This document shows, piece after piece, positions 1 through 5,965 of a stretch of 5,965 nucleotides of DNA. The DNA comes from a virus (Duplodnaviria > Heunggongvirae > Uroviricota > Caudoviricetes), in IMG/VR virus record IMGVR_UViG_3300029157_000020; one strand, 5' to 3'. Below the pieces are notes generated by a model, which made no database searches, was not told the origin of the DNA, and saw only the letters and a program-made list of their open reading frames with translations. Position numbers and translations under genes: made by a program. Positions within the stretch are counted from its first letter, which is position 1; every line of letters starts with the position of its first letter.

Positions 1-114
1 ACTCAACATGAACTAGATCTGGTTGCTGCTCAGCTAAACAACAGACCGAGAAAGACACTGAAGTTCAAAACACCGAAAGAGATAATTGAAAGGGGTGTTG
101 CATTGACAGATTGA
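1..114 (+). CDS. insI: IS30 transposase, C-terminal fragment (5' partial at window edge)
   Basis: Open frame 1 from the window start to TGA at 112-114; the C-terminal motif ...NNRPRKTLKFKTPKEIIERGVALTD is recognised as IS30 transposase (InsI in E. coli K-12 nomenclature). Confidence 0.85.
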   Translation, partial: TQHELDLVAAQLNNRPRKTLKFKTPKEIIERGVALTD

Positions 115-121
115 ATCTACA
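96..121. repeat. IS30 right terminal inverted repeat (IRR)
   Basis: 26-bp TGTTGCATTGACAGATTGAATCTACA overlapping the transposase stop codon, as expected for the IS30 right end. Its partner IRL is outside the window, so the inverted-repeat relationship could not be checked here. Confidence 0.75.
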
Positions 122-1019
122 GCGGCGTACTTCGCAAAGCTGTCCGACTGAGGTACGCCTTTATCCGCGACAACAGCCGTTGCTGGCCTGTTCGTTTGCT
201 CTGTCGGGTTCTGGATGTCCATCCGAGTGGATTTTATTTCTGGCTTCAGCAGCCACATTCGCAGCGTCACCAGACAGATCAGATGCTGACCGGGCAAATC
301 AAACAGTTCTGGCTTGAGTCTGGCTGCGTCTATGGTTATCGCAAGATCCATCTCGATCTGCGTGATACCGGACAGCAGTGCGGAGTGAACCGGGTCTGGC
401 GGCTGATGAAGCGTGCCGGAATAAAAGCTCAGGTTGGGTACCGTAGCCCACGAGCACGTAAAGGCGAAGCCAGCATCGTGACACCCAACAGGCTCCAGCG
501 GCAGTTCAATCCGGACTCACCGGATGAGCGTTGGGTGACGGACATAACCTACATCCGAACCCACGAAGGCTGGCTGTATCTGGCCGTGGTGGTTGGCCTG
601 TTCTCCCGAAAAGTTATCGGCTGGTCAAGCAACCCCGCATGACAAAAGAGATTGTCCTGAACGCATTACTTATGGCGGTGTGGAGGCGTAATCCTCAAAA
701 GCAGGTACTGGTTCACTCTGATCAGGGTAGTCAGTACACGAGCCATGAGTGGCAGTCGTTCCTGAAATCACACGGTCTGGAAGGCAGCATGAGTCGTCGC
801 GGTAACTGCCACGACAACGCGGTTGCGGAAAGCTTTTTCCAGCTACTGAAACGCGAACGGATTAAGAAAAGGATCTACGGAACGAGAGACGAAGCCAGAA
901 GCGATATTTTTGATTATATCGAAATGTTTTATAACAGTAAGCGTCGGCATGGTTCGAGCGAGCAGATGCCACCGGCTGAATATGAAAACCTATATTATCA
1001 ACGGCTCAGAAGTGTCTAG
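122..1019 (+). pseudogene. IS3-family (IS911-like) transposase OrfB remnant, 5'-truncated by the IS30 insertion and frameshifted
   Basis: Frame 1 from 122 reads ...CRVLDVHPSGFYFW...ERWVTDITYIRTHEGWLYLAVVVGLFSRKVIGWS and stops at 640-642. Frame 3 then continues RMTKEIVLNALLMAVWRRNPQKQVLVHSDQGSQYTSHEWQSFLKSHGLEGSMSRRGNCHDNAVAESFFQLLKRERIKK...YNSKRRH... to TAG at 1017-1019. This is a typical IS3-family OrfB integrase core (DDE region, HSDQGSQYTS, GNCHDNAVAESFF) split by a frame change at about 615-640. No orfA and no left end are present; the sequence abuts the IS30 IRR. It resembles the IS30-interrupted IS911 arrangement I recall from E. coli K-12. The right boundary is uncertain, about 1019-1037. 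Confidence 0.8.
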
Positions 1020-1041
1020 ATTATCCGTGGCGATTCAATGG

Positions 1042-1173
1042 GGTAACCACTTTTGGTCACGTGGATACTTTGTAGATACTGTCGGTGTGAACGAGGAAAT
1101 TATCAGACGATATGTGCGGCATCAGGAGAAAATGGAGCAAATGCACGAACAGCAGATGGAATTGCTAGAGTAG
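1042..1173 (+). pseudogene. IS200/IS605-family TnpA (Y1/HUH transposase) C-terminal remnant
   Basis: Translation GNHFWSRGYFVDTVGVNEEIIRRYVRHQEKMEQMHEQQMELLE* closely parallels the IS200 TnpA C-terminus as I recall it (...FWCRGYYVDTVGKN...IKHQLEEDK...). Only about 44 codons are present and there is no in-frame N-terminal part. The upstream portion of the track ORF 910-1173 overlaps the IS3-family orfB and is not real. Confidence 0.65.
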
Positions 1174-1188
1174 CATGAGGAAGGTGAC

Positions 1189-1246: not shown

Positions 1247-2352
1247 CTAACTCTGTCTGCTTAGTTCATTTCCTAATGCAGGAAATTTACATGATATTAT
1301 AGATCTTGATAATCTGATAAATGGCCTTTCTACTACATTGTAGAAAATATATGCAGTGGTTATCGTTATGATGAACAAAAGGATAAGTCTGGACATTCCT
1401 ACCCACTGATTGTAAATTGGTATATTTGCTCCAAACTTATCTAAATACATGGTAATGGCAATATGCGTCAGATATAACGAATAAGAGATGTCACCGAAAA
1501 ATGATAGCATCTTTATCTCTTTTATCTCATTTTTCATTTCATAGGCAACAAGTGTCGCAATCAGCAGGATCGCCCATAATCCATAGTTAAAAGGCCCGTG
1601 TGCTGCTTTGTATTGAGCAAAGTAGAAACAGAAAACTAACGAGCATGAAATTACAGCAATGACATTAATTTTGGGGGGTGATGATATTACGTTTCTTAAT
1701 TCGTATACCATCATGCCAAATATGAATTCTATTAACATCGGCGATGAGGTAAACCGCAGGAATGCCGCTAAGCCTTCCGGCATTCCTGCCTGTAGTGCAA
1801 TTGCATTGTCACCTTCCATGCTAATACTGCCATTAAAGTAAAGTTGCAGACTGAACACAGAGACGGCAAGCATAAATTATGCAATCCATGATCTGTATTT
1901 ATGACTAATGCTCATCGCAACGAAGAATATCAGATAAAAATAAATCTCATAGGTCAGGGTCCACGCTTGCCCTATCATGTTGCCACCAAAGAACGGTGCC
2001 TGCTGGCTGTAGTCAGCCTGTATCAGTAACGCAGATCTCCAGAATGAAAAATTATCTTCGTTTGAAATAAATAAAATATTGCCAACGTAATAATAAACAA
2101 CGGATAAATCCTGAAGAATCTTTTTACAACATATTTAGTTAACATGTTGTCTTCACTCTTTGCGGTTGAAAGCGCAATAATAAATCCGCTAATCATGAAG
2201 AAAAGGTCTACCCCAAAGGATCCGCTTATGAACATTAAATCACCGAAATTCTTTATCGGATAAATATCATTAAGGTTACCTCTGAAGTGGAAGCCAACAA
2301 CCAATATGGCCGCAATGCCTCGAAGGTATTGAATAGAACGCACTTGCTGCAT
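1247..2352 (-). pseudogene. Acyltransferase family 3 (OafA/Oac-like membrane O-acyltransferase), disrupted by one frameshift and one in-frame TAA
   Basis: Minus-strand N-terminal ORF (ATG at 2350-2352; MQQVRSIQYLRGIAAILVVGFHF...GVDLFFMISGFIIA...RIYPLF...) stops at 2023-2025. The middle segment continues in another frame (...QAPFFGGNMIGQAWTLTYEIYFYLIFFVA...) to an in-frame TAA (complement of 1877-1879). The same frame then continues ...FFGDISYSLYLTHIAITMYL... to the stop at 1247-1249. These motifs are hallmarks of Pfam acyltransferase_3. Total length is about 367 codons. Strongly AT-rich. Confidence 0.75.
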
Positions 2353-2750
2353 AATTCTACCTAAGCTAGTTAATAATTTTCGTGTCGCGAATTGTAATCT
2401 ATATGAAAGCCTGTGTCAGCAATGCATCATTTGGACGTCAGAAGGTGTCGCGGTAGTCGATCGGGGTCTGGTCGTGCGGCTGGATGACATTCTACTCGCC
2501 ATTCTCGATGGTCGTAGCTACTTCGGTAAGGTAATGTAGAAAGTGATCATCACGGATTAAGATGATTCGATAGAAGGGGATTGTCTTGATGAGCTTGAAG
2601 CTGTTGTTACATCGGCCGCGCCGGATATCTCTGGCCTGAAAAACCTGCTTAACGAAGATTGCCGCCGCCCATCGTATGTAAGAACGGACGGCGGCTGGTT
2701 GCTCAGTGTTCATGCCCGAGCAAACGTCGGGGATAGTACCCAAGTTAAAA

Positions 2751-3017
2751 TTAAAGGCCAACCTGGCGAACGGGCGATAACTCAGATACCAGCCACATAT
2801 CTGCCTCTTCAAACATATCCTCCAGCATGCGGTTCAGCTTTTCCCGATCGTTTTTGCTGGCATCACTATTCAAGCCGTTCGCCTGCATTGGCTTTACCTT
2901 CACTTCTGCATCAGGAAAAATCTGGTGCACTCGCTTTGTTAGCTCAGCCAGGATGATCTCTCTGGCCCCTTGGAGCCCTTCAACATTTCGCTTGTCATAA
3001 ACCAGTTCAACAAACAT
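2751..3017 (-). CDS. DinI-family protein (DNA-damage-inducible protein I paralogue), 88 aa
   Basis: MFVELVYDKRNVEGLQGAREIILAELTKRVHQIFPDAEVKVKPMQANGLNSDASKNDREKLNRMLEDMFEEADMWLVSE... aligns by eye with E. coli DinI (...ELSRRIQYAFPDNEGHVSVRY...ILQETWESADDWFVSE). ATG at 3015-3017 (complement) is preceded by a good SD (AAGAGGA, 5-nt spacer). A minus-strand TTGACT -35 (complement of 3091-3096) and a LexA box lie upstream. Confidence 0.8.
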   Translation of the reverse strand: MFVELVYDKRNVEGLQGAREIILAELTKRVHQIFPDAEVKVKPMQANGLNSDASKNDREKLNRMLEDMFEEADMWLVSELSPVRQVGL

Positions 3018-3074
3018 ACCGATCCTCTTATAAGTGAAAAATTGCCTGTGCTTGATCTGTTTTCATAAAAATAA

Positions 3075-3094
3075 TACTGTATATGAATACAGTC
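3075..3094. promoter_or_regulatory. LexA (SOS) operator in the divergent intergenic region
   Basis: TACTGTATATGAATACAGTC has a perfect CTGT(3077-3080)-N8-ACAG(3089-3092) with an AT-rich spacer, matching the E. coli LexA box consensus TACTGT(AT)4ACAGTA. It sits between the -35 TTGACT and a TATTTT-like -10 of the minus-strand DinI-like promoter, and about 25 bp upstream of the plus-strand 79-aa ORF start. Confidence 0.7.
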
Positions 3095-3117
3095 AATAAG
3101 CGAATGAGGGTGCGTTA

Positions 3118-3357
3118 ATGCCTCGCCAACCGGATATTCGTGCTGCTTTTATTGCGGCCATACAGCAAAACCCTAAGGGCTATCTCTGCCTGCACAAAGA
3201 CAAATTCATCGCTGAACTGCAGGAGAGGCACTGGCATTTCAGCCTGGCGGATGCAAATTCATGGATCGAGCGATTCCAGCCGGAGTTCGCCGATAAGACG
3301 ACAAACGGAAGCGAGAACCGATACTGGATCCTGCGTAACATGGGGATGGTTTACTAA
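3118..3357 (+). CDS. Hypothetical 79-aa protein divergent from the DinI-like gene; putatively LexA-controlled
   Basis: ATG at 3118 is preceded by GAGGG (3106-3110, 7-nt spacer); stop TAA at 3355-3357. The translation MPRQPDIRAAFIAAIQQNPKGYLCLHKDKFIAELQERHWHFSLADANSWIERFQPEFADKTTNGSENRYWILRNMGMVY has balanced composition. The overlapping alternative frame (3140-3448) is Arg/Ser-rich junk. No family recognised. Confidence 0.55.
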   Translation: MPRQPDIRAAFIAAIQQNPKGYLCLHKDKFIAELQERHWHFSLADANSWIERFQPEFADKTTNGSENRYWILRNMGMVY

Positions 3358-3398
3358 TGGGATTTCCATCCCCAGCCATGGATTACTAGGAGCAGCGC

Positions 3399-3464
3399 AT
3401 GACGATAGATGTTATCTGCGGTGTAGACAACAACTGCCGGGTTATTGAAACTTCATGCGGCTAG
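3399..3464 (+). CDS. Possible 21-codon Cys-rich small ORF (MTIDVICGVDNNCRVIETSCG), or the 5' piece of a decayed gene
   Basis: ATG at 3399 is preceded by a canonical AGGAG (3388-3392, 6-nt spacer); stop TAG at 3462-3464. Downstream frames contain protein-like but interrupted segments. Weak call. Confidence 0.2.
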   Translation: MTIDVICGVDNNCRVIETSCG

Positions 3465-3740
3465 GCCGTTATTAACGTCAGTCTGAAGCCAGAAGAGGGG
3501 ATGCGTTGCTGGTTAGCATGGACGGGAGAAACCAGTTTGTGAAGCTAATGGGTCAGGCGCTGATCACTTAAGATGGTGAAGCGATTGAAGGGGAAGCTCT
3601 GAATGATGTAACGGTGCACGGCGTTCTTACACATACACTTAACCAGGTTAAAGACGATAAATCGCCTGTAATGTAGCGTGTAACTGTCGGTGGTTATTCC
3701 CCAATTTTTCCCCAATGCTTCCCCGTACAAATTTCAAACA

Positions 3741-3770
3741 TGAAAAAACCAGCCGTAAAAGGCTGGTTTT
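3741..3770. terminator. Bidirectional rho-independent terminator immediately 3' of the tRNA-Pro fragment
   Basis: Stem AACCAGCC (3747-3754), loop GTAAAA, stem GGCTGGTT (3761-3768), flanked by an A-run (3742-3746) on one side and TT on the other. On the minus strand it gives a stem followed by TTTTT directly downstream of the tRNA CCA end. Confidence 0.6.
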
Positions 3771-3781
3771 CAATGTGTTTT

Positions 3782-3831
3782 TGGTCGGCACGAGAGGATT
3801 TGAACCTCCGACCCCCGACACCCCATGACGG
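3782..3831 (-). tRNA. Truncated tRNA-Pro (anticodon GGG, proL-like): 3' 50 nt only (positions about 27-76); not a functional gene
   Basis: Minus-strand sequence CCGTCATGGGGTGTCGGGGGTCGGAGGTTCAAATCCTCTCGTGCCGACCA contains the anticodon loop (U33, GGG at 34-36), variable loop, T-arm (GGAGG-TTCAAAT-CCTCT), acceptor 3' strand and CCA. It matches the 3' half of E. coli tRNA-Pro(GGG) as I recall it. Beyond 3831 the sequence (ATGTTCAAATTT...) no longer matches the D-arm or acceptor 5' strand. Confidence 0.75.
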
Positions 3832-3858
3832 ATGTTCAAATTTCTTCTAGCTTATCTA

Positions 3859-4272
3859 TTAGAGTAATTGAAGAGTCCGCAAAGTTATTTGCAGCGTCCT
3901 GTGGAATTTCAAAATTATGTTTATATGCAGCCATGTTACGCAGTTGCGTAAGCTATCGTGTAGAGCTGCAAAATCTAAATCAACCAAGCCAGCTTTATAA
4001 AGCAAGCGCATAAGATGATATCCATTCATTAGCTCAAAGCGTCGGTCGTTTGAATGAGGAGGCAATTCAATTGTTCCAACATCAACTTTTCGTTTCACAC
4101 CATTCCGCAATGAATTTTCAAGTTTCAGATAGGATTTCATAACATTCTCATAAGGGCTTAAGAAAAAAGTCCTTGTAACGCTCTGAGTTGTCTTTTTCTT
4201 TATCTGAAATAATTTCAGCCTACCCAGCAGCTTCTGCTGCTTGCTCTTCATACATAATCTCAAACTTATCAT
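3859..4272 (-). CDS. Hypothetical protein, 137 aa, AT-rich, Lys-rich N-terminus; no family recognised
   Basis: A 414-nt open frame in strongly AT-rich DNA, which is unlikely by chance given the stop-codon density. ATG at 4270-4272 (complement) has no obvious SD; internal Met codons at residues 8 and 45 are alternative starts. It ends 28 bp from the tRNA fragment breakpoint. Contains an R-x6-H spacing (RNCVTWLH), but this is too weak to assign a HEPN-type fold. Confidence 0.45.
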   Translation of the reverse strand: MISLRLCMKSKQQKLLGRLKLFQIKKKTTQSVTRTFFLSPYENVMKSYLKLENSLRNGVKRKVDVGTIELPPHSNDRRFELMNGYHLMRLLYKAGLVDLDFAALHDSLRNCVTWLHINIILKFHRTLQITLRTLQLL

Positions 4273-4746
4273 ATTTTATTGATTTTATTGTTCTAATAAG
4301 TTTGAAAAGGTCATATCGACCGTAATAGAGAAAACTGGCCAAAAGAACTGGCCAGGCTAGCGACTTGATCATTGATGACAGGAATGTCAGAAAATCCATT
4401 GTCTTTGCTTTTCATCGAAGTAGAGATAGAGTATATGTTACAAAATCGTTCTCCTAAATGAAAGTAAATCATCTATATTTCAGCATGTCAGATTTTGTGG
4501 TTCAGCGTTAAAAAAATCTCTGTAATTAAGTGGTTTATCAAAATAACAAGGCCTTAAGATACTTTTTTAATTTAATGCTGTCAGCATTATCGATAAAGCG
4601 CAATTCAGGCTTAATGCCCTGGCTATTAACGCTGGTTCATTCACTATGTCGCCTGGTTATAACATCACCTAGCGCTGGTTCGCTATTGCGAGTTAGCTAA
4701 GACAATTAAATTCAGCGTAAAAGCACAGGCGTTTTATGATGAAAAT

Positions 4747-5151
4747 TTGAGTGTTATCCCGGCTGATGCTGTAGACTTTACTCAAGAAGAACATATTCAT
4801 CTCATCGCCGGGATGAATGATGGTGAGCAACGTGTCTGCAGTGATACAGGCGGGAAATTGATGCTGTCTGGCCGCAGACCTTCTCAATGGTATACCTGGG
4901 ATAATGATAATAATGCGTGGGCTATTTCGGATCATGCACGGGTCCAGCTTGCAGAAGCTGAGAAATTTCGTCGAATCCATGAGGCAAACGACTTTATCAA
5001 TAACCAGCAATTGCCTGGCAAAACTGCCATGGGGCGACTGAAAGATTCAGAGAAAGAACACTACAATTTGTGGCTGGATTATCTTAAAGCGCTGGAGGCG
5101 GTCGATACATCAACTGCGCCAGATATCCTCTGGATAGATAAACCTGAATAA
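4747..5151 (+). CDS. tfa: Phage tail-fiber assembly protein (Tfa family); orphan, and possibly 5'-defective
   Basis: The C-terminal region ...[26 protein letters not shown]...[33 protein letters not shown] parallels lambda/Rac-type Tfa C-termini (...WVKDTEAEKLFRIREAEE...[26 protein letters not shown]). There is no in-frame ATG: the frame opens after TAA at 4660-4662, the first start-like codon is TTG at 4747, and an ATG-ATG at 4736-4741 with an AGG upstream is in a different frame and hits TGA after 4 codons. No tail-fiber gene lies upstream (4273-4660 is AT-rich non-coding). Confidence 0.75.
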   Translation: [134 protein letters not shown]

Positions 5152-5616: not shown

Positions 5617-5626
5617 NNNNNNNNNN
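5617..5626. other. Assembly gap (10 N): scaffold join, true spacing and adjacency unknown
   Basis: Run of 10 n characters in the sequence. Confidence 0.95.
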
Positions 5627-5688
5627 TCAATACCCTGACAACGGGATTATCAGAATATCTTTAAAAATGAATCAGTCTTTCTCAACAC

Positions 5689-5965
5689 TCAGGTTTGGGG
5701 TGAAATTTCTTTTCTTTTAAATGCAAAATTCTCTATGGACTTTCTTATATAGTTCATTGGTGTTTCGCATAGATAAAACATTAGCATCCCAAGCGCAATG
5801 CTCATAATAGTATTTGCAAAAATAGTTTCAACTGGCCCTCCATAGATATTTTGATTATTAGTAAGGAAAAGCCAATGATATAGATAAATAGAAAAACTGT
5901 ATTTGCCTATAAATCTGAATGCTTTGTTACTAAAAAAAACAGCTGAGTATCCAGATGTGTTACAT
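5689..5965 (-). CDS. Second acyltransferase family 3 protein, C-terminal 92 codons (5' end beyond window)
   Basis: My reverse-complement translation, which is not in the supplied ORF track because it lacks a start within the window: CNTSGYSAVFFSNKAFRFIGKYSFSIYLYHWLFLTNNQNIYGGPVETIFANTIMSIALGMLMFYLCETPMNYIRKSIENFAFKRKEISPQT*, stop at complement of 5689-5691. FIGKYSFSIYLYHW is the characteristic C-terminal acyltransferase_3 motif. The sequence is distinct from the 1247-2352 pseudogene. AT-rich. Confidence 0.7.
   Translation of the reverse strand, partial: CNTSGYSAVFFSNKAFRFIGKYSFSIYLYHWLFLTNNQNIYGGPVETIFANTIMSIALGMLMFYLCETPMNYIRKSIENFAFKRKEISPQT

What the first reader, a model, noticed from the sequence alone, without database searches (positions are those of the whole stretch)
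3741..3831. 3' half of tRNA-Pro(GGG) with its terminator but no 5' half: integration-site scar marking an island or prophage boundary
Seen directly: only tRNA positions about 27-76 are present and homology breaks cleanly at 3831/3832. A terminator follows the CCA end on the tRNA strand. Established knowledge: tyrosine-integrase elements insert into the 3' end of tRNA genes and leave a direct repeat of the tRNA 3' segment at the distal junction. Inference: 3832 onward (AT-rich ORF, tfa remnant, acyltransferase) is the inside of an element that targeted a proL-type tRNA, or a remnant of one. The region to the left also looks accessory, which suggests tandem or serially decayed islands at one hotspot. 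No integrase is present in the window.
Basis: partly seen in the sequence, partly recalled or inferred. Interest (0 to 1): 0.5.

Follow-up and report, generated by a model that had tools for sequence, protein, structure and literature searches.

The report
Leftover phage attachment site, tRNA-Pro fragment
The half tRNA-Pro gene is real, but it is a leftover piece of an old phage attachment site carried inside a decayed Enterobacter prophage that sits at the icd gene, not a scar marking an island inserted at the tRNA-Pro gene; this is ordinary phage mosaicism.

Summary
Window 3782-3831 (- strand) is a perfect copy of tRNA-Pro(GGG) positions 27-76, with no 5' half, followed by a strong hairpin terminator (3744-3771).

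- The fragment, the terminator and three 11-nt-spaced GGGGAA repeats form one arm plus the core of the attP of lambdoid phages that integrate into proL. Examples are E. coli phage Flotzy and the CX21 prophage. The terminator therefore comes from the phage.
- The window is not at proL. Identical longer contigs run on to a displaced icd 3' fragment and Enterobacter cloacae-complex backbone genes, so this is the far end of a prophage remnant inserted in icd.
- Homology does not break at 3831/3832 when the window is compared with Enterobacter and Kosakonia icd prophages. There, a 188-aa HEPN-like gene ends 4 nt before the same fragment. In the window that gene is a pseudogene.
- The same relic lies inside E. 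coli prophages at ssrA, and a degenerate copy lies in Gifsy-2.

The best reading is a fossil half-attP whose cognate integrase was replaced. It probably survives because its hairpin terminates converging transcription. This is a known kind of feature and of low interest.

The parts
3782..3831 (-). 3' 50 nt of tRNA-Pro(GGG), positions 27-76. This is the core of a proL-type attP (46-nt identity block C31-A76 plus CCGT).
   Evidence: 50 of 50 bases identical to the intact proL of E. coli CX21. The 46-nt block is identical to the phage Flotzy attP. There is no 5' half and ARAGORN finds no tRNA.
3744..3771 (.). Hairpin plus T-run that reads as a terminator on both strands. It is the phage-borne terminator of the attP arm.
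   Evidence: The terminator scan finds it on both strands. The fold has a z-score of -3.8. Of 113 viral contigs with the core, 96 have a perfect hairpin plus T-run within 60 nt of the CCA, and the stems show compensatory variants ACCAGC/GCTGGT and ACCAAC/GTTGGT.
3697..3724 (-). Three GGGGAA repeats (TTCCCC on the + strand, starting at 3697, 3708 and 3719) with an 11-nt period. They are putative arm-type integrase-binding sites of the int-distal attP arm.
   Evidence: Read directly from the sequence. The same triple repeat is present in Flotzy, CX21 and many viral contigs: 55 of 109 have at least two GGGGAR, and others have a triple ATGGTGAAA. Their function is inferred.
3357..3673 (+). Pseudogene of the Flotzy CDS37 homologue (annotated UmuD-like), with three in-frame stops and a frameshift.
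   Evidence: tblastn gives 94-95% identity in two frames with stop codons.
3118..3357 (+). Intact 79-aa ORF of the phage arm (Flotzy CDS36 homologue).
   Evidence: 92% aa identity over the full length.
2751..3017 (-). Intact DinI-family gene. It marks the left limit of the block shared with proL-type coliphages (homology starts near 2750).
   Evidence: Pfam DinI, E = 2e-23. Homology to E. coli prophages and phages covers 2750-3831.
3836..4399 (-). Pseudogene of a 188-aa protein with an N-terminal hydrophobic stretch and a HEPN-like C-terminus. Its stop codon (3838-3836) lies 4 nt upstream of the tRNA fragment. The mechanical ORFs of 59 aa and 137 aa are pieces of it.
   Evidence: tblastn of P0004 shows an in-frame stop at 4220 and frame changes near 4154 and 3945. 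Intact copies lie next to icd' in E. cloacae-complex and Kosakonia genomes. Pfam gives DUF4145 at 17 bits and HEPN_RiboL-PSP at 14 bits, both below threshold. An RNMAAH motif is seen in the sequence.
4400..4597 (-). Upstream region of the 188-aa gene up to the end of the icd-type prophage arm (4580), plus about 16 nt (4581-4597) that resemble the edge of the icd att core.
   Evidence: Homology to L095-L099 ends at 4579-4580, which is where icd' begins in those genomes. A local alignment matches TGAC--AGCATTAAATT to TGACGGAGCATTACATT.

Best explanation
The fragment is a fossil half-attP. It comprises the core (the tRNA-Pro 3' segment that an anticodon-loop-targeting, lambda-type tyrosine integrase uses to rebuild proL on integration), that site's own terminator, and three putative arm-type repeats. 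It is now stranded inside a prophage remnant that uses a different site, the 3' end of icd, in an Enterobacter cloacae-complex chromosome.

In active relatives the integrase gene ends about 135-150 nt upstream of the core on the same strand. On integration the phage-borne 46 nt plus terminator replace the 3' end of proL. In the lineage seen here the integrase side was replaced. A small cargo gene (188 aa, HEPN-like, now a pseudogene) ends 4 nt before the core, and the functional att site of the prophage lies about 750 bp further on.

Without its integrase and its second arm the relic cannot act as an attP. What it most plausibly still does (inferred) is terminate transcription. It would stop the cargo gene on the - strand and the two small ORFs on the + strand through the two-way hairpin. 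It would also serve as a conserved patch where related phages recombine, which would explain why the left flank is coliphage-like and the right flank Enterobacter-prophage-like.

Shown: identity of the parts, their contexts in other genomes, the location at icd, and the pseudogenes. Inferred: the order of evolutionary events, terminator use, and the role of the repeats.
For: 1. The left flank together with the fragment (2750-3831) is 93-95% identical to E. coli prophages ending at an intact proL next to yejM, and to phages Flotzy and Eeyore. In Flotzy the order is DinI, two hypothetical ORFs, core, int.
2. A canonical lysogen was reconstructed in CX21: yejO, then the displaced 46-nt fragment with the native terminator, then int ... 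J ... DinI, two hypothetical ORFs, then proL and yejM.
3. Of 120 viral contigs with the exact 46-nt core, 39 fragments have a Flotzy-like integrase upstream, mostly 132-158 nt away. 27 others have at least 1.3 kb of upstream sequence and no such integrase. Others carry the 188-aa gene, a 272-aa gene or DinI there instead.
4. The terminator and the triple repeats are regular parts of these sites.
5. The window's own genome continues to icd' and Enterobacter backbone (EAL protein 94% identical to E. hormaechei), and an empty icd site exists in E. hormaechei.
6. Four E. cloacae-complex genomes and Kosakonia oryzae have icd', the 188-aa gene, the tRNA fragment, the terminator and DinI as one conserved unit, 85-90% identical to window 3689-4580. 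A viral contig (L119) carries the full window arrangement 2661-4580.
7. The same relic sits about 1 kb inside E. coli prophages integrated at ssrA, still carrying 5 nt (AGTGA) of the Flotzy integrase arm. Degenerate copies exist in Gifsy-2 and in two Enterobacter icd prophages, the latter with a 6-8 nt deletion in the anticodon arm.
8. No Flotzy-like integrase is found in any of these relic loci.
Against: - Only 9.4 kb of the source genome is visible, so a cognate proL-type integrase elsewhere in the genome cannot be excluded.
- The relic in the window is a perfect copy, and relatives differ at only 1-3 of 50 positions where the flanks differ by 10-15%. Some constraint, or gene conversion with proL or with proL phages, is therefore possible.
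- Terminator activity and integrase binding to the GGGGAA repeats are not measured.
- The order of events (loss of int versus gain of the icd module) is inferred from comparisons, not observed.
Confidence: 0.8

Rival explanations
1. The fragment is the displaced tRNA 3' half at the distal junction of an element integrated into proL, the element's interior lies from 3832 rightward, and the hairpin is the tRNA gene's own terminator.
For: tRNA positions 27-76 are present without a 5' half. Accessory genes lie on the right, namely a tail-fibre assembly remnant and acyltransferase pieces.
Against: - In a real displaced fragment (CX21) the integrase arm lies upstream and the native terminator plus yejO flank lie downstream. 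Here the downstream side is the phage arm with its own hairpin and repeats, and the upstream side is a cargo gene.
- The contig ends at icd' and Enterobacter backbone, not at proL, yejM or yejO.
- The 3831/3832 junction is conserved inside icd prophages of several species.
Confidence: 0.03
2. The relic core is a live secondary attB. A Flotzy-like proL phage integrated, through its own integrase, into the fossil core of the resident icd prophage. The left side (terminator, repeats, two small ORFs, DinI) would then be the decayed end of that second phage, and the fragment would be a true prophage junction with the element to the left.
For: - The left flank is 93-95% identical to E. coli proL phages, while the right flank is 90% identical to Enterobacter icd prophages.
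- Relatives L095-L098 lack the two small ORFs and diverge from the window just past the terminator.
- The window's terminator loop matches Flotzy rather than those relatives.
- The anticodon stem-loop, the likely crossover region for this class of site (PMC4383910), is intact.
Against: - Viral contigs L119 and L193 carry the same left and right combination, the cargo gene followed by the fragment and then the two small ORFs (L119 continuing into DinI), within single predicted prophages.
- No integrase or other Flotzy-like genes lie further left. Homology stops at 2750 and is followed by an acyltransferase pseudogene and IS remnants.
- Homologous recombination within the shared 140-nt block explains the mosaic equally well.
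Confidence: 0.12
3. The fragment is kept as a functional RNA element. It could be a structured 3' UTR or processed small RNA of the HEPN-like gene's transcript, or a tRNA-like decoy or regulator for that putative RNase.
For: - The cargo gene, the fragment and the terminator lie on one strand with only 4 nt between the stop codon and the fragment, and this is conserved from Enterobacter to Kosakonia.
- A 29%-identical homologue is also followed by the fragment.
- There are fewer substitutions in the fragment than in the flanks.
- The fold is stable, with a z-score of -3.8.
Against: - The same block occurs next to an integrase, a 146-aa protein or a 272-aa protein, all unrelated.
- The anticodon arm carries 6-8 nt deletions in two Enterobacter copies.
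- The Rfam matches (isrK 20 bits, STnc450 23 bits) are far below threshold and do not reappear at the homologous places in Gifsy-2, Flotzy or the relatives.
- In the window the gene itself is dead.
Confidence: 0.05

Closest known systems
attP of proL-integrating lambdoid coliphages (Escherichia phages Flotzy PP925827 and Eeyore PP925821; prophage of E. coli CX21 between yejO and proL)
   Same: The 46-nt tRNA-Pro core, the hairpin terminator, the triple GGGGAA repeats and the arm with two small ORFs and DinI are shared at 93-95% identity.
   Different: There is no integrase and no integrase-side arm. Positions 27-30 read CCGT, as in the tRNA, where Flotzy has GTGA. The element is not inserted at proL.
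Displaced tDNA fragment that marks the far end of a tRNA-integrated island (the principle used by Islander, PMC4383910; anticodon-centred 'A' sites)
   Same: It is a 3' tRNA fragment starting at the anticodon arm and created by a tyrosine-integrase att site.
   Different: It is not paired with an intact proL across one element. It is flanked on its 3' side by phage arm DNA rather than native chromosomal DNA, and it lies inside a prophage at another locus. It would be a false positive for that principle.
e14 and phage 21 type prophages integrated in the 3' end of icd, which leave a displaced icd fragment
   Same: The contig that contains the window ends in a 50-aa icd C-terminal fragment contiguous with backbone. 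That fragment matches the ICDH-like segment of phage 21 at 74%. The empty icd site is seen in E. hormaechei.
   Different: That icd junction lies outside the window (about 1.1 kb beyond its right end). Inside the window only a relic of about 16 nt of an icd-type core edge remains, at 4581-4597.
Lambda int-attP-sib/tI layout, in which a terminator or retroregulator lies across attP from int (own knowledge, an analogy only)
   Same: In Flotzy-type phages int is read toward the core and the hairpin lies just beyond it on the same strand.
   Different: No retroregulation was tested. Here the hairpin also has to serve as the terminator of the rebuilt tRNA gene.
Relic copies of the same block in other prophages: E. 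coli FEX669 and strain 1500 prophages at ssrA, and Salmonella Gifsy-2
   Same: The same core plus terminator, without a cognate integrase, lies inside a prophage that uses another site.
   Different: The upstream cargo differs (a 272-aa protein in the ssrA prophages; a position downstream of sseI in Gifsy-2). The E. coli copies keep 5 nt of the Flotzy integrase arm. The Gifsy-2 copy is degenerate.

Membership tests
Displaced tRNA 3' fragment at the junction of an element integrated in proL (attR-type scar) | 3' end fragment of the tRNA, in end-fragment configuration, with no 5' half | tested here: met
   Positions 27-76 match at 50 of 50, and ARAGORN finds no tRNA.
Displaced tRNA 3' fragment at the junction of an element integrated in proL (attR-type scar) | Native chromosomal sequence (the proL terminator and the yejO-side flank) follows the fragment's 3' end | tested here: not met
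   In the CX21 lysogen the displaced fragment is followed by AACCAACCCTTACGGTTGG and yejO-side DNA. In the window it is followed by the phage-type hairpin, the GGGGAA repeats and the DinI arm.
Displaced tRNA 3' fragment at the junction of an element integrated in proL (attR-type scar) | The integrase-proximal arm of the element lies immediately 5' of the fragment | tested here: not met
   A 188-aa non-integrase pseudogene ends 4 nt upstream. No Flotzy-like integrase is present in L003.
Displaced tRNA 3' fragment at the junction of an element integrated in proL (attR-type scar) | An intact cognate tRNA gene in the same replicon and orientation, with the element between the two copies | not testable with these tools
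   Only 9.4 kb of the source genome is available. The visible context is icd', not proL. Logan contigs break 30 nt into the fragment, which is consistent with a second copy in those samples.
Functional attP of proL-targeting lambda-type integrase phages | Core identical to tRNA-Pro from the anticodon loop to the CCA (46 nt) | tested here: met
   Identical to Flotzy and to 120 viral contigs.
Functional attP of proL-targeting lambda-type integrase phages | Int-distal arm with a terminator hairpin and tandem repeats | tested here: met
   The repeats start at 3697, 3708 and 3719.
Functional attP of proL-targeting lambda-type integrase phages | Cognate tyrosine integrase gene upstream of the core on the same strand (132-158 nt away in most, up to about 1.9 kb when other DNA intervenes) | tested here: not met
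   Absent from the window and from L003. Present in 39 viral contigs.
Prophage integrated in icd (phage 21 / e14 type) | Displaced icd 3' fragment contiguous with backbone, and an empty site in relatives | tested here: met
   L003 2159-2374 is 92-93% identical to the Enterobacter icd 3' end, and backbone homology stops at 2374. An intact 416-aa icd is seen at the empty site in L016.
Prophage integrated in icd (phage 21 / e14 type) | Cognate integrase next to the rebuilt icd at the other end | not testable with these tools
   All contigs of the source end in IS sequences on that side.
Rfam isrK / STnc450 small RNAs | Score at or above the family's gathering threshold | tested here: not met
   isrK scores 20 bits against a threshold of 50, and STnc450 scores 23 against 37. 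There are no matches at the homologous places in Gifsy-2, Flotzy, L097 or L015.

The most novel reading that the evidence does not exclude
The tRNA-Pro core plus terminator block is not merely a fossil. It would be a maintained module at the att-proximal end of many enterobacterial prophages. It would be the fixed 3' border of a swap-in slot for small cargo or defence genes (HEPN-like 188 aa, 146 aa, 272 aa), and it could still serve as a landing pad (secondary attB) for proL-type integrases or as a tRNA-like 3' element of the cargo transcript.
Probability: 0.1. Interest if true: 0.5.

Novelty: new member of a known kind. Interest (0 to 1): 0.2.

Why it matters
Mostly as a caution. A tRNA 3' fragment with a terminator is usually read as an island endpoint, and this case shows that such fragments can travel inside phage genomes as dead half-attachment sites. 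They then turn up at unrelated loci (icd, ssrA, Gifsy-2's site between pncB and pepN). Island finders that pair tRNA genes with their fragments would misplace boundaries here. It also documents how lambdoid phages change integration specificity: a new integrase and att module is added outside the old core, and the old core and terminator are left behind next to a variable cargo gene. Nothing here challenges current understanding.

Tried and rejected
- An exact 31-mer across the 3831/3832 junction found nothing among the GTDB species-representative genomes. The organism was identified instead from a backbone protein.
- Megablast and blastn of the right flank (3832-4740) against 5,426 E. coli genomes found nothing except a tail-fibre assembly match. 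Relatives were reached through the protein.
- I first took the CCGT at positions 27-30, which matches the tRNA rather than Flotzy's GTGA, as evidence that the site had once been joined to a real tRNA. I dropped this after seeing that positions 27-30 vary freely among viral attP copies and that CCGT is common there.
- The Rfam hits to isrK and STnc450 looked like a lead to a prophage small RNA. They are sub-threshold and do not recur at the homologous loci. The only paper mentioning STnc450 was not informative.
- Literature searches for proL-integrating prophages, SPI-12/proL and phage Flotzy gave nothing usable.
- My initial guess from memory that the window was Salmonella SPI-12 (proL, oafA) was wrong. 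The backbone is Enterobacter.
- The mechanical ORFs of 137 aa and 59 aa are not genes in their own right. They are frames of one broken 188-aa gene.

Full report
**Observation.**
On the - strand, window 3831..3782 reads CCGTCATGGGGTGTCGGGGGTCGGAGGTTCAAATCCTCTCGTGCCGACCA. This matches positions 27-76 of the intact 77-nt tRNA-Pro(GGG) gene of E. coli CX21 at 50 of 50 bases. Upstream of position 27 the sequences are unrelated, and ARAGORN calls no tRNA anywhere in the window. A 32-nt piece of the fragment occurs once in the window and never in shuffles. Thirteen bases after the CCA there is an 11-bp hairpin with a T-run (3771-3744 on the - strand). It also scores as a terminator on the + strand, and the region folds far better than shuffled sequence (z = -3.8). 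Four independent metagenome contigs carry the identical junction, so it is not an assembly artefact.

**The fragment belongs with the DNA on its left.**
Window 2750-3831 is 93-95% identical to E. coli prophages and to phages Flotzy, Eeyore and Phi06_2987.
- In E. coli CX21 this block (DinI, two small ORFs, hairpin) runs directly into an intact proL next to yejM.
- In the free phage Flotzy the same block is followed by the 46-nt tRNA segment and then, 136 nt further on the same strand, by the integrase gene. Its product has lambda-type Arm-binding and catalytic domains.
- I reconstructed the full CX21 lysogen. The order is yejO, then the displaced 46-nt fragment followed by a different, native hairpin (AACCAACCCTTACGGTTGG), then int ... 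Q ... terminase ... J ... DinI, two small ORFs, then proL and yejM.

The tRNA segment, the hairpin and the DinI-side flank therefore make up the core and one arm of a phage attP. On integration the phage copy becomes the new 3' end and terminator of proL. Identity between phage and tRNA starts at C31 (CATGGGG...). This fits the anticodon-centred class of tRNA att sites described for Islander (PMC4383910).

**How general this attP is.**
- 14 are intact tRNA genes.
- 39 are fragments with a Flotzy-like integrase upstream, mostly 132-158 nt away and sometimes 1.2-1.9 kb away.
- 27 are fragments with at least 1.3 kb of upstream sequence and no such integrase.
- A few have other genes in the integrase position.
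- 96 of 113 have a perfect hairpin plus T-run within 60 nt of the CCA, and the stems show compensatory variants ACCAGC/GCTGGT and ACCAAC/GTTGGT.
- Many have three tandem repeats just beyond the hairpin, either GGGGAA-type or ATGGTGAAA-type.

In the window the repeats are TTCCCC on the + strand, starting at 3697, 3708 and 3719, one helical turn apart. I read them as arm-type integrase-binding sites. This is an inference by analogy with lambda's tandem arm sites and was not tested.

**The locus is not proL.**
The 137-aa mechanical ORF to the right of the fragment is encoded, with identical sequence, on many short metagenome and Logan contigs.
- The longest, L003 (9.4 kb), is identical to the window apart from the window's 10-N run.
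- Beyond the window's right end it continues through acyltransferase pieces to a 50-aa C-terminal fragment of isocitrate dehydrogenase, and then to DUF1304, DUF2543 and EAL genes.
- The EAL protein is 94% identical to that of Enterobacter hormaechei and 92% to E. quasiroggenkampii.
- Backbone homology to 13 Enterobacter species stops at L003 2374, inside the 3' end of icd.
- In E. hormaechei B17-3 the same backbone runs straight into an intact 416-aa icd, which is the empty site.
- The icd fragment also matches the ICDH-like att segment of phage 21.

The window is therefore the far end of prophage material inserted in icd in an Enterobacter cloacae-complex chromosome.

**The junction at 3831/3832 is old and internal.**
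The 188-aa protein P0004 (E. cloacae complex) and its Kosakonia and E. mori relatives match the 137-aa ORF in part. In four E. cloacae-complex genomes and in Kosakonia oryzae this gene is the first gene inside the icd' junction, and DinI follows it. Window 3689-4580 aligns to these loci at 85-90% without interruption across 3831/3832. Each locus has the tRNA fragment (1-3 substitutions) and a hairpin directly after the gene.

In the window the gene (4399-3836, - strand) is dead. It has an in-frame stop at 4220 and frame changes near 4154 and 3945. Its stop codon is 4 nt from tRNA position 27. The protein has a hydrophobic N-terminus and a C-terminal RNMAAH motif, with sub-threshold DUF4145 and HEPN matches. 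I call it HEPN-like, with low confidence. A viral contig (L119) carries the whole window arrangement from DinI to the end of the arm.

**The same relic occurs elsewhere.**
- E. coli FEX669 and strain 1500 carry the DinI, two small ORFs, hairpin and core block inside a prophage integrated at ssrA. A 272-aa gene sits where the integrase would be, and 5 nt (AGTGA) of the Flotzy integrase arm are still attached.
- Enterobacter sp. ECC-219 and E. vonholyi have, about 830 bp inside the icd junction, a copy with a 6-8 nt deletion in the anticodon arm, preceded by an unrelated 146-aa ORF.
- Gifsy-2 has a degenerate copy downstream of sseI.
- None of these loci has a Flotzy-like integrase.

**Interpretation.**
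The fragment is a fossil half-attP: core plus int-distal arm, without the integrase and without the other arm. The simplest history (inferred) is as follows. A proL-type phage carried cargo between int and the core; some active phages do have 1.2-1.9 kb there. It then acquired a different integrase and att module (icd, or ssrA) outside that cargo and lost the old integrase.

What keeps the block is most plausibly the two-way terminator between converging units, namely the cargo gene on the - strand and the two small ORFs on the + strand. It also has a role as a conserved patch for recombination between phages. That role would account for the coliphage-like left flank and the Enterobacter-like right flank. 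The window's hairpin loop matches Flotzy, not the Enterobacter relatives.

**Rivals.**
- A live secondary-attB model, in which a proL phage integrated into the relic, fits the mosaic. It is not needed, because L119 and L193 carry the same left-right combination within single predicted prophages (L119 spans the full arrangement; L193 the part from the 79-aa ORF into the cargo gene) and nothing Flotzy-like lies further left. I give it 0.12.
- A functional-RNA model rests on the tight, conserved linkage to the HEPN-like gene and on slightly low divergence of the fragment. However, the block also follows unrelated genes, tolerates deletions, and the Rfam hits (isrK 20 bits, STnc450 23 bits) are sub-threshold and do not recur. 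I give it 0.05.

**State of the region.**
The surroundings are decayed.
- The UmuD-like ORF is a pseudogene (3357-3673), with a second degenerate copy at 2426-2596.
- There are two different split acyltransferase genes (1247-2352, and from about 5640 to beyond the window end).
- A tail-fibre assembly remnant lacks a proper start (4747-5151).
- IS30, IS3-family and IS200-type remnants occupy 1-1175.
- The icd-type arm ends at 4580, exactly where icd' begins in relatives, and about 16 nt resembling the edge of the icd core remain at 4581-4597.
- Beyond that lie about 2.5 kb of a second prophage end before the real icd'.

This suggests two prophages once in tandem at icd, followed by deletion.

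**Verdict.**
The feature is real and correctly described, and partly misread. It is a relic of a proL-type phage attachment site carried inside an icd prophage remnant. It is a known kind of thing and of low interest, apart from its value as a caution for tRNA-fragment-based island mapping.

Noticed in passing
window 3836-4399 (- strand); intact copies at L095-L098 10001-10567 and L099 10001-10567: A 188-aa gene with a hydrophobic N-terminus and a C-terminal RNMAAH (Rx4H, HEPN-like) motif is the first gene inside the icd junction of several Enterobacter and Kosakonia prophages. Pfam matches are only sub-threshold (DUF4145 at 17 bits). In the window it is a pseudogene. It is a possible abortive-infection or defence cargo.
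   Followed up: partly
upstream of the tRNA fragment in L026 and L030 (146 aa), L014 and L015 (272 aa), L153 (193 aa), L021 (235 aa, opposite strand, with an RNKIQH motif): The position just upstream of the relic core holds different small genes of unknown function in different prophages, and most are read toward the core and hairpin. It looks like a variable cargo slot bordered by the functional att core on one side and the fossil core on the other.
   Followed up: partly
window 4581-4597, and L003 2375-4870 (window 4581 to about 7086): About 16 nt resembling the edge of the icd att core sit exactly where the icd-type arm ends. They are followed by about 2.5 kb of a second prophage end (tail-fibre assembly remnant, split acyltransferase) before the real displaced icd fragment. 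This suggests tandem prophages at icd followed by a deletion with one end at the core.
   Followed up: partly
window 1247-2352 (- strand), and about 5640-5965 (- strand, continuing in L003 2742-3771): There are two different Acyl_transf_3 (OafA/Oac-like) genes, both split into pieces, one on each side of the relic. Both are likely dead O-antigen or surface-sugar acetylases carried by the prophage remnants.
   Followed up: partly
window 1-1175: A stack of insertion-sequence remnants: the IS30 right end (1 to about 100), an IS3-family orfB with a broken frame (96-1037, 99% identical to E. coli copies) and an IS200-type Y1 transposase C-terminal piece (about 1030-1173). All contigs of this sequence in public assemblies end in such repeats and are under 10 kb.
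   Followed up: partly
window 5618-5627: The run of 10 N is an insertion relative to otherwise identical metagenome contigs, where GAAATGG and TCAATACC are adjacent. No real sequence is missing.
   Followed up: yes
window 3357-3673 (+) and 2426-2596 (+): The homologue of Flotzy CDS37 (annotated UmuD-like) has three in-frame stops and a frameshift. A second, 38%-identical degenerate copy lies to the left of DinI.
   Followed up: partly
L008-L012 (Logan contigs), ends corresponding to window position 3802: Logan contigs carrying the right flank all stop 30 nt into the tRNA fragment (k-1 for k = 31). This is expected if the 46-50 nt sequence is repeated in those samples, for example by the real proL gene.
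   Followed up: partly
L003 48-1175: The first 22-24 residues of the called EAL protein match the ends of many unrelated contigs (Shimwellia, Edwardsiella, Klebsiella and others). The backbone EAL gene is therefore truncated at its 5' end by an insertion sequence in this strain.
   Followed up: no
L097 2540-2603: A RyhB small RNA (69.6 bits, above threshold) lies in the Enterobacter backbone about 7 kb from the icd junction. It is unrelated to the finding.
   Followed up: no
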